Part shown: positions 9,001 to 13,180 of the stretch, one piece after another | Position numbering within the stretch: the first letter of the stretch is position 1 | Layout of the letters: every line of letters begins with the position of its first letter | Virus record (IMG/VR): IMGVR_UViG_2703719368_000028 | Reading direction: 5' to 3' (one strand) | Source of the DNA: a virus | Taxonomy: Duplodnaviria; Heunggongvirae; Uroviricota; Caudoviricetes | Length of the DNA stretch: 13,180 nt | Program-made: the position numbers

Positions 9001-12000
9001 ATTTATTCTTGAAGCTTTCGCTAAGTACTAACATTTAATAGCTCCTCATATTTCGAACGAGGTAATTGATAGAGGGTGATTCCTACCGGTTTTCCGTTAC
9101 TCATGTACGCATCATCAAGGTGACCAACACGGGTAGCGCCAAGCAAACGGATAATTGCCCGTCCGTATTTGGTGGTGTCAGGAACCATGGTGATGCTGTT
9201 AAGGAATGGTGAGTTTTCGAGAAGCCATTTGCAGAATAATCGATGCCCTTGTAGTGCATATTCGCCACGGAATCCGGGGTCATACACCGCATGGCATTCA
9301 ACAACGCTATGCCAGAAGTTACGCACTTCATGAACTCCAGCCAGCACTAATCCTTCGTAGATGCCGAGATATACCGCATCAGGCTTGATGTAGTATTTAT
9401 CTCCACTGTCTACGATATTCCCCGTGTTTACCGGGTTGTTAAGGAATTCTGCAAGTTTCACCGGGTTATCGATGAGCTTTATTTCCATCACTGCTCCGCA
9501 ATGATTTTGATGGTTGTGGCAGTAAACGCCGCGCCATTCGACTGAATGGTTAACGTGCTGCCATTTGTGGCAAGAAAGCCGTCTTTATCCACGCTGAAGA
9601 ACGTAGCTAACAGGATGTTGTCGGTTGTTGTTGCCGAGTTGCGACTGCTTACTAGCGTGTCAGGAACAGAACCGGAGAATGTTAGCTGCATTGACCTGTT
9701 GGCGGTTCCGCTGGGCCACGTCCCGACAATCGACAGCTTGAAGAACAAGGTTTTGTTCTCGTTGAACACAACCATCTTGTTGTTAACGGTGTCGAAGAAT
9801 GGTGCCAACGTCCCGGATGACGGCGTAAGCGTTTTCAGCAGGCTAACAAGGTTGGTCGGCGCTGTCGGGATGGTTACTGATACGCCAGAGTAAACAACCT
9901 CTGACTTCTTGCGCGTAGTGGCATACTCCAGAGCATTAATGCGCGTTTCATGGTCTGAAACCTGCGATTCCAGCGACTGAACTCTGGTATCAAGCGATGC
10001 AATATCGCTTTCATTCAAGGCAATCAGTGGGTTTACGTCATGGAGTGGGCTCAACACCAGTCAGAGCCGCATGTACACGCAATAATCATGGTGAACGAAA
10101 GAAGCATTAATGGGCAAGCTGGCAAAATTGTCAGCAAATGGGTAACACTGGCAAACAATGCAATCCCATCAAATGTTCCTCCCCAGTGGGATCTAGATTT
10201 GAAAGGTCAGCAATATTCAGAGCCTACAAAGTGTATAGGTAAACAGATTGATTACATGGCAAAGCCCGAAACTAAGTTAAATGACTTTAATAGAGAGGCG
10301 AGCAAGAGCCTATATGATTGGTCAGATGCCAACGTTTGGGGTTATTCGAATGGCTGGGCGCGGCATGAGATAAAAAAAGAAACACTTTCTATCACTGGCT
10401 TTCATGCTGTAAGACGCATACTAAAAGCCGTTCAGGCATCAAGGAAAGACAACTACAAAGCTAAGCGACAGATACAGCGTACATTGAAACGACAAGACAT
10501 AAATCGATCACCAATCACCCCGTTCCAAGCACCGTTAATTAGCAAACACGATTGGGATTTATCAGTGATAGCGGTCACCAAAGAGGCAGAGACAGAGCGC
10601 AGGGAATTACTATCCTCACAGATAATAAACTCGAACAAAGTACAAACCCACCCACTGTTAAGGATGTTAAGAAGAGCACGAGTGAGAGCATCCAGAGCCA
10701 AAAGAGAAAGCGGAGGTTATGACCATTACTACTAGTAGTGACAGATCGTGACAAGGCGGTGCAAAAAACGACCAATAATAAGAGAGATATGCCTGCCAAA
10801 CCGCCAAAAGCGCGGAGCGCGGCAAACGCCGCGAGAGGCGCAAGAAGGCGAACCTATCCATTGAAACGGTCAGAAGCGCATCGCGCTCGACGACCGAAGT
10901 CCCCACTAACACCGTTAACGAAAGATCAAAGTCTTAGAAAAAAATGACGTTTCTTTGATGGACTTCCATCCGTAAAAATCAAATTTTGAGAAAAAGTACT
11001 TATAGAAATTAATCGCTCTATAAGGATAAGTTGACGTTAGTTTAAAGTGATAAAACATTAAAGAAAAAACGTAAAATCAAATACATAAAATAAGTCACCA
11101 AGGGATCATTTTCAGAAAACAACGTCAACGTAACGTCAACTCTGTAAGAACTTTTTTGGTCACTTTTTGGGTTGAATGTACGTAAAAATCCCCAGCAGTG
11201 AAATTTGAGCGCGTAAGCACAATTCTGAGGGGCTTTTTGTCTGTAGGTTAGGCAGTGTAACTAACAATACAAGAAGTTAGCTCTGACTAACTATTTAATT
11301 AACTTTTCAATCTAATTGCGTTAGATATTATACCCTAACGCAATATTTTTAATTCAATAATGTCTGTAAATTGTTATTACTTATAATTATACATTTAACT
11401 ATATCTACATTGGCTGCTTCCAATTACTACTTACGTAACGGAATCTCGGATCCTCTGTTTTTGGCTCGGTATAATAAGAATCATCAATAGTAAAGTTCGA
11501 CGCTAATTTATCCCGAAGCCCACCTAAACGTTCAATGCTTGTTAGTTCGTTAGTAACATCCTTGAAAACGGTAGAAAATGCTTTATGTTGTTTAGACTTC
11601 ATAAATTCAGGAGTGCTCAGTGCAAACTCTTTATCAGGCAAACCTGGAATACCCACGAGTCCTGTCAATGAATTTATACATTTTATCAAAAAACTGCCTT
11701 GAATACCTTGATTTGATGGAACACCGTAGCTTCGTTTAATATCTCCAGATATTTTATCTAAATCACTTAGTAATTTTGTTACTTTTTTATTTCCTGCACT
11801 TATCCCCGATTCATCGTAGGTCACATGAATCTCTCGGATTACATCTCGACACGTACGAAAATGATCATGTGTTCTAAGCTCTAAAGCTGAATTGATAACT
11901 TGAGAGACATTTCCTGTTTCGTTTGCTAGCCATGCAGAAAATATTGGTAAATCTAATGAAATAGTAGATGTGCGTCCATGATCTACAATTTCAGATCTTG

Positions 12001-13180
12001 CAGTACTGATTTTATCAGACAACGATTGCACCAACCTTGCAGTATAATCATGACCAAAAGCACCTGTTTTTTTCATCCAATGCAATTGATATGCATGCCT
12101 TATTGGATGAATAAATGAGTCTGCTTTAAAATGCTTAGCAATGACGCTGTAATAAATAGATTTATATGCCAACCAATTTAGCGATGCGATAAACATTTCA
12201 AGTGAACGAGTCATACCTCCTTTACCGCGAGTAGATTTTTCCCTTTCTAGTTCAAATTCACGCTCAGTATATTCATGTCCAGATGAACTCACTAGCTTCA
12301 CATCGGTTGACCAGTACCCTTTCGTATCAGAAGCATCTGATAATTCATTAAAAATCGATGCACTTAGTTCACTATATTTCGCATATTCAGGAGTACCGGG
12401 CTGACCAAGCATTTTCATTGTTAAGTAATACACGCTAGACCGAAGATCCCATGTGCAAATCATATTCAGCTTAAGCATCTCTACAAGTTGCCTAAAATCA
12501 TCGTCAACAAACTCCCCACCTCTAATTTCGGAAGTAATTTGCCGAGATTCAACTTGTGCTAACTGATCAAGTTCACTGAGTTGAAAATCACTTTCAGATA
12601 CAAATTTAATAAAGTCAAATTTAGCAATGCGTTTATCTCTATATTCTTTTTTATAATTATCTACACAGATCAGGGTATCGTAAAAAAGTATCGCTTGAAT
12701 AAGATTTTCAAAAGCGACTAAATCTCCGTTAATAGTATCTGGATTCTTAACAAGAATATCACCCAGTGTTCTTTCGACTGCTGTTAACGAAGCATTATCA
12801 ATCAACGCATAAGACATTAAACTACCTCCATTAGATAATATCTAATAACATTATATTTCAATTAGGTTTAAAAATTGTGATACTTATGACAGATTTGAGT
12901 GACATTTTATCAATCTACTGATTTTGATGGTGAAATTTATTAGAAGGTATGCGTAGTGCTACGGGAGAAATGAGAAACGCGCCCAGCAATGGCGCATCCT
13001 TTCTTAAGCAAGTTGGCTAGTATCTATAGCATCCATCCAATCAGGAGCAATTCCCAAACGTTCCGCGAACTCTTCATTGGTCACGTCTTCCATTGAGAGA
13101 CTAGCCAGACAATCGTTAATTTCAGAATAGACGGGGGAAAGTAATAGGTATTCCCGCAACTCTTTCAGGTCTTTTTCCAT

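What the first reader, a model, noticed from the sequence alone, without database searches (positions are those of the whole stretch)
11405..12995. AT-rich 470-aa orphan gene with its own promoter, strong ribosome-binding site and flanking terminators, embedded in a decayed prophage: candidate undescribed defence or abortive-infection function
This is the largest intact gene in the window and has the cleanest expression signals (GGAGGT 6 nt before the ATG, perfect TATAAT, hairpins on both sides). Its composition is clearly foreign to the neighbouring virion genes. It replaces the region where a P22-like prophage would carry head and tail genes. I recognise no nuclease, ATPase, methylase or toxin motif; the Rx(4-6)H-like strings present (e.g. 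RSEIVDH) are too weak to call. Single-gene, AT-rich, self-contained cargo in prophages is where anti-phage systems are often found, but the defence idea rests on context only. The small acidic gene immediately upstream (13004..13180), separated by a terminator, could be a partner or regulator.
Basis: partly seen in the sequence, partly recalled or inferred. Interest (0 to 1): 0.75.

Follow-up and report, generated by a model that had tools for sequence, protein, structure and literature searches.

The report
Mobile single-gene candidate anti-phage defence
This intact 470-residue gene of E. coli O157 belongs to a small, uncharacterised protein family that hops between bacteria as a lone gene, often landing in integrons and anti-phage defence islands, so it is a good but untested candidate for a new one-protein phage-defence system.

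Summary
The ORF is real: 11405..12817, minus strand, 470 aa, 36% GC. It has an invariant Shine-Dalgarno and a positionally conserved -10-like hexamer, but no -35. A good terminator lies upstream and a conserved 3' hairpin without a T-run lies downstream.

The gene is not cargo of the P22-like remnant. It is the distal end of a separate small argW islet (P4-type integrase, AlpA, 215-aa 'replication protein'), which E. coli strain 4 carries without any P22 DNA.

The protein matches nothing in Pfam, NCBIfam or PADLOC, and no PDB sequence or viral structure. It defines a compact family: 317 representatives at 50% identity, one architecture. The family is scattered over Gamma- and Betaproteobacteria and a few other lineages, with no conserved neighbour and lower GC than its flanks in 28 of 31 loci.

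It is a single attC-bracketed integron cassette in Vibrio vulnificus. It also sits among Hachiman, SIR2-HerA, SEFIR/TIR, AbiH, AbiGi and AbiTii genes in other genera, but about half the lineages show lone insertions among housekeeping genes.

It is not related to the validated one-protein PIN system DS-3. Defence is supported by association only. The nuclease mechanism is inferred.

The parts
11405..12817 (-). 470-aa ORF (RefSeq WP_000119352.1, 'hypothetical protein'). It is the founding E. coli member of an uncharacterised single-architecture family.
   Evidence: ORF and translation. RefSeq annotation. 233 close homologues and 317 representatives at 50% clustering, nearly all full-length ones 455-485 aa. 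No Pfam, NCBIfam or PADLOC hit. Soluble, no TM segment, pI 5.9.
12398..12817 (-). Codons 1-140: N-terminal alpha/beta domain with a PIN-like fold. This is the most conserved part, with D7, R16, G19 and D32 invariant, E37 always acidic, and D47, D53, D/N54, Y55, R63 and W123 near-invariant. It is the candidate catalytic (nuclease) head.
11408..12397 (-). Codons 141-470: mostly helical body with beta-hairpins and no detectable structural or sequence relative. R240, P238, P291 and R324 are invariant. It evolves faster than the head and is the inferred regulatory or sensor part.
12824..12829 (-). Shine-Dalgarno GGAGGT, 6 nt before the ATG.
   Evidence: ATGGAGG is invariant in E. coli, Dickeya and Salmonella.
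12850..12855 (-). -10-like hexamer TATAAT without a recognisable -35. Its position is conserved (GATAAT in Dickeya, GACAAT in Salmonella).
   Evidence: Not reported by the two-hexamer scan.
11315..11344 (-). 3' stem-loop (10-bp perfect stem, 10-nt loop), 61 nt after the stop codon and with no T-run. It is conserved in Dickeya with a G.U change.
   Evidence: (I17).
11302..12858 (-). Extent of nucleotide similarity with Dickeya solani (81%): the ORF plus 41 nt 5' and 103 nt 3'. This is the smallest unit seen to move among Enterobacterales.
   Evidence: Flank alignments.
10018..13180 (.). Part of an argW integrative islet, distinct from the P22-like remnant: the 215-aa 'replication protein' (10088-10735, +), an AT-rich spacer with GTTGACGTTA repeats (10736-11404), the 470-aa gene, and a 58-aa acidic gene (13004-13180, -). 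It continues beyond the window to a serine recombinase.
   Evidence: About 99% identical to E. coli strain 4, where the islet has its own P4-type integrase and AlpA and no P22 genes. L001 annotation. Repeats.

Best explanation
The gene encodes a self-sufficient, horizontally mobile, one-protein anti-phage defence candidate of the abortive-infection type. The most conserved part is an N-terminal alpha/beta domain with a PIN-like fold and an invariant acidic pocket (D7, D32, E37, D53/D54). I infer that this is a metal-dependent nuclease head, and that the faster-evolving, structurally novel ~330-residue body keeps it inactive until it senses a phage component. There is no antitoxin or partner gene. 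In E. coli O157 the gene is expressed from its own -10/Shine-Dalgarno signals and ends in a conserved hairpin. It arrived as accessory cargo of a small argW islet carrying a P4-type integrase and AlpA, and a P22-like prophage later decayed next to that islet.

Shown:
- The ORF is intact.
- The family exists, with a single fixed architecture.
- No partner gene is conserved.
- The gene is mobile, including as an integron cassette.
- It is frequently associated with defence islands.
- The fold of the head and its conservation pattern.

Inferred:
- Anti-phage function.
- Nuclease activity.
- Autoinhibition and sensing.
For: - Single-gene unit: no neighbour cluster is shared across 31 loci, and the E. 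coli neighbours are absent elsewhere.
- Mobility: lower GC than flanks in 28/31 loci. 76-81% nucleotide identity between E. coli and Dickeya, Salmonella and Vibrio, confined to the ORF and short flanks. Only 317 of 5426 E. coli genomes carry it.
- Integron cassette: attC-type repeats bracket the gene in the V. vulnificus superintegron, next to Lit and ParE/Phd cassettes. It sits beside an intI-like integrase in Stutzerimonas and V. tasmaniensis. Integron cassettes are an experimentally shown reservoir of small defence systems (10.1101/2024.07.02.601686; 10.1101/2024.07.02.601719).
- Defence neighbours: Hachiman HamAB, an LmuB-like ATPase, an OLD/Gabija-like ATPase and PIN_8 in Pseudomonas. AbiTii and PIN_8 in P. 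fluorescens. AbiGi, a TerB/BrxD-like/helicase trio and Mrr in Salmonella. SEFIR/TIR, SIR2+HerA and AbiH in V. tasmaniensis.
- Fold: two independent models both give VapC PIN domains as best PDB matches.
- Conservation: an invariant acidic and arginine set is concentrated in residues 1-63. The head is more conserved than the body.
- Precedent: DS-3, a one-protein PIN system without an antitoxin, was validated in E. coli, and its D7A and E42A mutants lose defence (PMC13092281).
Against: - No experiment exists, and none of the defence libraries tested recognises the protein.
- About half of the lineages sampled show lone insertions among housekeeping genes: Dickeya, Aeromonas, Shewanella, Azospira and Chromobacterium. 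The Pseudomonas defence contexts are phylogenetically related, so they are not independent.
- The positions of the canonical third and fourth PIN acids are only 54% and 71% conserved (D105, D124).
- I could not inspect model coordinates, so spatial clustering of the conserved acids is unverified.
Confidence: 0.5

Rival explanations
1. It is a mobile accessory gene with a conflict-related role other than phage defence. Examples would be an anti-plasmid or anti-MGE exclusion factor, an addiction-type or selfish toxin that stabilises the island or cassette array carrying it, or a counter-defence gene.
For: The same evidence of mobility, foreign composition and location in islands and integrons applies. 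Integron arrays and CP4-57-type islands also carry toxin-antitoxin and antirestriction genes right beside it. In E. coli it lies next to a replication gene and a possible origin of an islet.
Against: There is no adjacent antitoxin-like partner conserved anywhere, so a classical TA role is unlikely. A lone 53-kDa protein with a conserved enzymatic head is more typical of Abi-type defences. The neighbours are mostly anti-phage systems rather than anti-plasmid ones.
Confidence: 0.2
2. It is an ordinary cellular enzyme or regulator, for example a nucleotide-binding or RNA-processing protein with a Rossmann-like head. On this reading it is frequently transferred and lands in variable regions by chance, and the defence association is guilt by location only.
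Against: Distribution is very patchy, with high identity across distant genera and low GC in 28/31 hosts. It occurs as an integron cassette. It is absent from most strains of a species (317/5426 E. coli). No metabolic or housekeeping family matches it.
Confidence: 0.15
3. It is a functional gene of the mobile element itself: either a satellite or islet life-cycle gene (replication, packaging, interference with a helper phage), or a morphogenetic or accessory gene of the P22-like prophage.
For: There is a full-length match to PHROG 13435. In E. coli it lies just after a 'replication protein' and an AT-rich repeat-bearing spacer, and next to P22-like ejection genes.
Against: There is no tblastn hit in 50,697 phage genomes and no BFVD structural match. 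The islet exists without P22 DNA. Homologues in other genera lack the rep gene, the 58-aa gene and the recombinase, and they occur in integrons and chromosomal sites with no phage genes. The PHROGs hit by all three islet genes are small, of unknown function, and probably derive from O157 prophage-region annotation.
Confidence: 0.05

Closest known systems
DS-3 (working name PIN8; WP_022645725.1), a one-protein PIN-domain anti-phage system validated in E. coli by the DefensePredictor study (PMC13092281)
   Same: Both are single proteins with no antitoxin or partner. Both begin with a PIN-type strand-Asp motif (DS-3 'MIIDTNIL' with D7/E42; here 'ALIDNASL' with D7/E37), followed by a large non-PIN body. 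Both are accessory genes of Enterobacterales annotated as 'hypothetical protein'. DS-3 is proposed to be auto-inhibited until infection.
   Different: No homology is detectable: hhalign probability is 0.3% against the DS-3 sequence and against an 18-member DS-3 family profile. DS-3 is 340 aa against 470 aa here. DS-3's PIN is split between the N- and C-termini, whereas here the PIN-like fold is a contiguous N-terminal domain. DS-3 aligns in register with VapC and this family does not. DS-3 is experimentally validated and this gene is not.
VapC-type PIN-domain ribonucleases (Pfam PF01850; toxins of VapBC toxin-antitoxin systems)
   Different: There is no sequence-level relationship. There is no adjacent antitoxin. 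The protein is 3.5 times larger. The third and fourth canonical acidic positions are only partly conserved, while additional invariant residues (D32, D53/D54, R16, R63) are not part of the VapC signature.
Other PIN-containing defence proteins: Brc24 (PIN_12, mobile-integron cassette; 10.1101/2024.07.02.601719), DS-5 (PIN_12 plus partner; PMC13092281), and the PIN_8 proteins found next to homologues in Pseudomonas
   Same: They are small defence units carried in integrons or defence islands, with a PIN-class nuclease head.
   Different: Those proteins match Pfam PIN_12 or PIN_8, and this family matches neither. hhalign against the DS-5 PIN protein gives 0.2%. DS-5 needs a second gene.
Integron-borne single-gene defence cassettes (V. 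cholerae superintegron systems such as Esos, Taranis and Belenos; 10.1101/2024.07.02.601686)
   Same: They use the same vehicle. In V. vulnificus the gene is one attC-bracketed cassette in a sedentary chromosomal integron, and homologues also occur outside integrons, as reported for those systems.
   Different: None of the 16 described V. cholerae systems has this architecture. At 1.4 kb this cassette is large for an integron. No phage phenotype has been measured.

Membership tests
PIN domain superfamily (VapC-like nucleases) | Significant sequence or profile match to a PIN family model | tested here: not met
   No Pfam PIN family hit for the query or any of 65 relatives. The N-terminal profile hits no PIN chain in the PDB. 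hhalign against a VapC profile gives 0.4%, while the DS-3 control aligns in register at 6%. The profiles were shallow, so sensitivity was limited.
PIN domain superfamily (VapC-like nucleases) | Three-layer alpha/beta/alpha fold with a parallel sheet, superimposable on solved PIN domains | tested here: inconclusive
PIN domain superfamily (VapC-like nucleases) | Four conserved acidic residues forming the metal site (strand 1 Asp, helix Glu, and two further Asp) | tested here: inconclusive
   D7 is 100% and E37 is 100% acidic, at the expected positions. The candidate third and fourth acids, D105 and D124, are only 54% and 71% conserved and are absent in some clades. Other acids (D32, D47, D53, D54) are conserved instead.
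DS-3 one-protein PIN defence family (PMC13092281) | Homology to WP_022645725.1 and its relatives | tested here: not met
   hhalign probability is 0.3% with both the single sequence and the 18-member family alignment.
Known anti-phage defence systems (PADLOC-DB v2.0.0) | Match to any defence-protein HMM | tested here: not met
   No family matched for the query. Only three single-member chance-level hits (E at least 0.012) occurred among 65 relatives. DefenseFinder models and post-2023 additions could not be run.
Anti-phage defence system (functional class) | Measured protection against phage when expressed in a sensitive host | not testable with these tools
No paper mentions WP_000119352, and it is absent from the stored DefensePredictor tables, some of which were truncated.
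Anti-phage defence system (functional class) | Enrichment next to known defence genes or on mobile elements | tested here: inconclusive
   Defence or integron context in E. coli, Salmonella, V. vulnificus, V. tasmaniensis, Stutzerimonas and Pseudomonas. No such context in Dickeya, Aeromonas, Shewanella, Azospira and Chromobacterium. No background-corrected statistic was computed.
Integron gene cassette | Single ORF bracketed by attC recombination sites within a co-oriented cassette array | tested here: met
   This holds for the V. vulnificus homologue, not for the E. coli copy. In L037 the gene at 10001-11413 lies between repeat copies starting at 9848 and 11428, which belong to a 31-copy TAACAA...GTTA repeat family across 21 kb of co-oriented small genes. 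The E. coli copy has no such repeats.
Type II toxin-antitoxin module | Adjacent small antitoxin gene co-conserved with the toxin | tested here: not met
   No conserved neighbour in 31 loci. The 58-aa acidic upstream gene is separated by a terminator and is absent from the other loci.
P22-like prophage gene | Presence in P22-like or other phage genomes, or linkage to the P22-like remnant | tested here: not met
   No tblastn match in 50,697 phage records. The same block occurs at argW without P22 genes in E. coli strain 4, and the junction is at window ~10018.

The most novel reading that the evidence does not exclude
The family is a previously undescribed one-protein anti-phage immune system. 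Its effector is a divergent, PIN-like (or entirely new Rossmannoid) metal-dependent nuclease, and its ~330-residue body is a new fold of phage sensor. It spreads as a naked 1.5-kb gene between integrons, satellite-like islets and defence islands across Proteobacteria, and is fixed in the E. coli O157:H7/O55:H7 lineage.
Probability: 0.4. Interest if true: 0.7.

Novelty: new variant of a known kind. Interest (0 to 1): 0.6.

Why it matters
- **A new defence family.** If it defends against phage, it adds a new sequence family, and probably a new sensor fold, to the growing class of one-protein, antitoxin-free nuclease defences. Only a few of these (e.g. DS-3) have been validated.
- **A tractable test case.** It is compact (1.5 kb), carries its own expression signals, and has clear candidate catalytic residues (D7, D32, E37) for mutagenesis.
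- **Relevance to O157.** Among the complete E. coli genomes searched it is found essentially only in the O157:H7/O55:H7 lineage. It could therefore affect the susceptibility of this pathogen to therapeutic or biocontrol phages and to incoming Stx phages, which use the adjacent argW site.
- **A cautionary example.** Accessory genes that look like prophage cargo can belong to an older, unrelated islet overlaid by a decayed prophage.

Tried and rejected
1. Pfam, NCBIfam, PADLOC and PHROGs on the query, and Pfam and PADLOC on 65 divergent relatives, gave no informative family. The only hit was PHROG 13435, of unknown function.
2. tblastn against 50,697 phage genomes gave nothing.
3. PDB sequence searches with the full-length and N-terminal profiles gave only chance hits: Sulfolobus PCNA at E 0.003, which is inconsistent with the predicted helices there, and a designed repeat protein.
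4. The first structure model, built from close homologues, was poor (pLDDT 60). It was redone with distant relatives from the exhaustive search (pLDDT 85).
5. Foldseek against BFVD viral structures found nothing with E of 0.001 or better. The afdb50 library was unavailable.
6. Homology to the validated DS-3 and DS-5 PIN systems was rejected by hhalign.
7. A VapC family profile was built to emulate HHpred. The result was negative for this family, and the DS-3 positive control was only weakly positive, so the test has low power.
8. The 58-aa acidic gene, the 215-aa 'replication protein' and the serine recombinase were tested as partners. None co-occurs with homologues elsewhere.
9. The apparent 23-nt terminal inverted repeats at 11309-11331 and 12835-12857 coincide with the ends of similarity to Dickeya. 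They are not conserved in Dickeya, so I judged them a chance match in AT-rich DNA.
10. An attC remnant around the E. coli copy was looked for. The 3' hairpin has its GTTAG/CTAAC cores in the wrong order for an attC, so this was rejected (read).
11. Literature searches were made for the accession, for integron defence screens, and for CP-933Y/argW. Nothing mentions this family. Getz et al. 2025 (V. parahaemolyticus integrons) is not in the library and could not be checked.
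Full report
**1. The observation**

The window contains a 1,413-nt ATG-to-stop ORF on the minus strand at 11405..12817, encoding 470 aa. It is the longest ORF in the window. Its GC content is 0.362, against 0.465 for the neighbouring P22-like genes and 0.441 for the whole window.

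- GGAGGT lies at 12829..12824, six bases before the ATG.
- TATAAT lies at 12855..12850.
- The two-hexamer promoter scan did not list this site because it has no usable -35. The region as a whole has fewer promoter-like sites than its shuffles.
- A terminator-like hairpin with a T-run follows the upstream 58-aa gene, at 12999..12975 (-14.4 kcal/mol).
- Downstream there is a perfect 10-bp inverted repeat (11315-11324/11335-11344). It folds stably (-14.2 kcal/mol, z -3.9) but lacks a T-run.

Comparison with the closest relatives strengthens some of these signals.
- ATGGAGG is invariant in E. coli, Dickeya and Salmonella.
- The -10 position is occupied by TATAAT, GATAAT and GACAAT respectively.
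- The 3' hairpin is retained in Dickeya with a G.U change (-23.5 kcal/mol, z -6.3).

**2. Where it sits**

The window is 100% identical to the chromosome of an E. coli strain of the O157:H7 lineage, at the argW tRNA-Arg locus. From left to right it contains:
- the end of a lambdoid prophage with its integrase;
- tRNA-Arg (5640-5711);
- intS;
- three P22-type DNA-ejection genes and a truncated tail-needle gene;
- a 215-aa gene;
- the 470-aa gene;
- a 58-aa gene.

Beyond the window come a serine recombinase, a DUF4942 fragment and the csc sucrose genes. The 2-kb block with the gene is present in 317 of 5,426 complete E. coli genomes. It is always chromosomal, single-copy and at least 99% identical, and the strains listed are almost all O157:H7 or O55:H7.

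The exception is decisive. E. coli strain 4 carries the same block at argW as the distal end of a small integrative islet, in this order:
- tRNA-Arg;
- a P4-type tyrosine integrase;
- a 240-aa gene;
- AlpA;
- small ORFs;
- the 215-aa gene, which PGAP names 'replication protein';
- the 470-aa gene;
- the 58-aa gene;
- the serine recombinase;
- csc.

This strain has no P22-like genes at the site. A base-by-base alignment puts the junction between P22-like DNA and islet DNA in O157 at about window 10018. To the right the two strains are about 99% identical. So the gene is accessory cargo of an older argW islet, and a P22-like prophage later decayed next to it. It does not replace P22 morphogenesis genes.

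The three islet genes each match a small PHROG of unknown function at full length. No phage genome in INPHARED encodes a relative, so the PHROG membership most likely reflects inclusion of O157 prophage-region annotations.

**3. The family**

The word-indexed search found 233 homologues. Among the 120 best listed, those that are not truncated align over essentially the full length. They share 54-85% identity in Dickeya, Salmonella, Vibrio, Shewanella, Aeromonas, Pseudomonas, Stutzerimonas, Undibacterium, Chromobacterium, Nitrosomonas, Azospira and some MAGs. Wherever a source names them, they are called hypothetical, and none has a Pfam domain.

The exhaustive profile search of 1.84 billion representatives found only 317 proteins. 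The full-length ones are nearly all 455-485 aa, so this is a small family with a single architecture. None of 65 members spanning 21-80% identity matches any Pfam or PADLOC model.

**4. It travels alone**

I clustered all ORFs in 31 genome loci and found no neighbour family that accompanies the gene. The 58-aa gene, the 215-aa gene and the recombinase are not found in any of them.

The gene has lower GC than its flanks in 28 of 31 loci (mean -7 points, -24 in Chromobacterium). Nucleotide similarity between E. coli and other genera is confined to:
- window 11302-12858 in Dickeya;
- the ORF plus about 12-14 nt on each side in Salmonella;
- the ORF alone in V. vulnificus (the V. tasmaniensis match extends only about 13 nt upstream).

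In Vibrio vulnificus the gene is one cassette of the chromosomal superintegron. An attC-type repeat (TAACAA...GTTA, 31 copies in 21 kb of co-oriented small genes) starts at 9848, and another starts 15 nt after the stop. Lit-peptidase and ParE/Phd cassettes lie nearby. In Stutzerimonas it lies next to a divergently oriented integrase of integron-integrase type, at the head of a co-oriented gene array. I did not check attC repeats there.

**5. Neighbourhoods**

Defence or mobile contexts:
- *Pseudomonas spp.*: complete Hachiman (HamA/HamB, E about 1e-270), an LmuB-like SMC ATPase with a DUF4365 protein, an OLD/Gabija-like ATPase, PIN_8 and SEC-C proteins, TIR_2, and a type II REase. AbiTii plus PIN_8 in P. 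fluorescens.
- *Salmonella*: a CP4-57-type island, with AbiGi, a TerB/BrxD-like/helicase trio and Mrr_cat on one side, and antirestriction, RadC and CbtA/CbeA on the other.
- *V. tasmaniensis*: SEFIR/TIR, SIR2 plus a HerA-like ATPase, and AbiH.

No such context:
- Dickeya, near ars genes.
- Aeromonas hydrophila, directly after recBCD in more than 20 assemblies.
- Shewanella.
- Azospira, next to parC/parE.
- Chromobacterium.

The association with defence islands and integrons is therefore real but not universal. The Pseudomonas cases are related to one another, and I computed no background-corrected statistic.

**6. Structure**

A model built from close homologues was poor (pLDDT 60). A model built from 65 divergent relatives is confident (pLDDT 84.6, pTM 0.87).

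Conservation is concentrated at the N-terminus.
- D7, R16, G19 and D32 are invariant.
- E37 is always acidic.
- D47, D53, D/N54, Y55 and R63 are 89-98% conserved.
- Further on, W123, S128, L132, W215, Y223, P238, R240, P291 and R324 are invariant or nearly so.
- Mean pairwise identity is 38% for residues 1-140 and 25-26% for the rest.

D7 sits at the end of strand 1 and E37 on the following long helix. From my own knowledge of the family, these are the positions of the first two catalytic acids of VapC. Candidate equivalents of the third and fourth acids (D105, D124) are only 54% and 71% conserved and are missing in some clades. The protein has no hydrophobic segment and a pI of 5.9.

**7. Testing the PIN idea by sequence**

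The tests were negative.
- The N-terminal profile finds no PIN chain among PDB sequences.
- A profile built from genuine VapC proteins (all PF01850) gives hhalign probability 0.4%.
- As a control, the validated DS-3 family aligns to the same VapC profile in the correct register (D7/E42), but at only 6% probability. The test therefore has low power, yet it still separates DS-3 from this family.

I treat 'PIN-like' as a description of the fold, not as family membership.

**8. Comparison with what is known**

The closest functional analogue is DS-3 of the DefensePredictor study. It is a 340-aa one-protein system from E. coli with a split PIN domain and no antitoxin, and its D7A and E42A mutants lose defence (PMC13092281).
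- Profile comparisons with DS-3, with an 18-member DS-3 family alignment and with the DS-5 PIN protein show no homology.
- Brc24 of mobile integrons carries Pfam PIN_12, which this family does not match.
- None of the 16 V. cholerae superintegron systems has this architecture.
- The accession is not mentioned in any searchable paper, nor in the stored DefensePredictor tables, some of which are truncated.
- One relevant study (Getz et al. 2025) and the DefenseFinder models could not be checked.

**9. Interpretation**

*Shown:*
- an intact, expressed-looking, compositionally foreign gene;
- a small family of fixed architecture;
- autonomous horizontal movement, including as an integron cassette;
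- frequent but not universal residence among defence genes;
- a conserved acidic N-terminal head with a PIN-like fold, and a novel body.

*Inferred:*
- The protein is an abortive-infection-type defence.
- Its head is a metal-dependent nuclease.
- Its body senses infection and relieves autoinhibition.

I put about 0.5 on the defence reading as a whole, and somewhat less on the specific nuclease mechanism. The rivals are a non-phage conflict function such as MGE exclusion or addiction (0.2), an ordinary transferable enzyme (0.15), and an element life-cycle or phage gene (0.05, largely refuted).

**10. Verdict**

Its stated context (P22 cargo, small partner gene) is wrong, and the function is untested. 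If confirmed, it would be a new sequence family within the known kind 'single-protein nuclease defence'. It is notable for its new sensor fold, its integron and islet mobility, and its near-restriction to the O157:H7/O55:H7 lineage among the E. coli genomes searched.

Noticed in passing
window 1280-1363 (+): Rfam sRNA-Xcc1 (RF02221) match at 78 bits, above the gathering score of 53. It lies at the 5' end of the ORF6N-domain gene of the lambdoid prophage.
   Followed up: no
window 4275-7033: argW tRNA-Arg (5640-5711) lies between two integrase genes: the lambdoid prophage integrase on the minus strand and intS on the plus strand. Together with the older islet further right, this means three elements have used or abut this site.
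   Followed up: partly
window 7000-7600: GC falls to 0.28-0.31 over the 3' part of the 'phage DNA ejection protein' gene (7208-8344, minus strand) and the spacer before intS. This is much lower than the rest of the P22-like remnant.
   Followed up: no
window 10736-11404: A 670-bp non-coding spacer (37% GC) follows the 215-aa 'replication protein'. It contains GTTGACGTTA three times within 110 bp (11030 +, 11120 -, 11131 -) and AAAATCAAAT-type direct repeats. It may be the replication origin of the argW islet. The repeat count alone is not significant: 7 of 200 shuffles reach it.
   Followed up: partly
L007 2587-9706 (also L008, L013, L023): A divergent pair recurs immediately upstream of the homologue in several Pseudomonas genomes. 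One gene is a 958-aa LmuB-like SMC ATPase. The other is a 1,321-aa protein with an N-terminal DUF4365 and no PADLOC hit. It is possibly a Lamassu-type variant.
   Followed up: no
L008 11521-13809 (also L009, L023, L029): A 719-762-aa protein whose only recognisable feature is a C-terminal SEC-C motif lies convergent to, and directly after, the homologue in four Pseudomonas-type loci.
   Followed up: no
L040 1-9356: In Aeromonas hydrophila the homologue sits about 100 bp downstream of recC-recB-recD in the same orientation. This arrangement is seen in more than 20 assemblies.
   Followed up: no
L034 15456-21280: The Salmonella island next to the homologue carries a three-gene set: TerB_N/TerB_C protein, a BrxC/BrxD-type ATPase and a DEAD/Helicase_C protein. 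AbiGi and an Mrr_cat nuclease are also present.
   Followed up: no
L037 6925-7842: A Peptidase_U49 (Lit-type) gene is present as a cassette of the Vibrio vulnificus superintegron, three cassettes upstream of the homologue.
   Followed up: no
E. coli genome hits H16, H55: Natural disruptions exist. In strain MA11 an IS1203 insertion splits the 2-kb block containing the gene. In O55:H7 DEC5B the match starts at query base 500, so the 3' end of the gene is missing. Truncated alleles of 83 and 277 aa also appear in the protein cluster.
   Followed up: no
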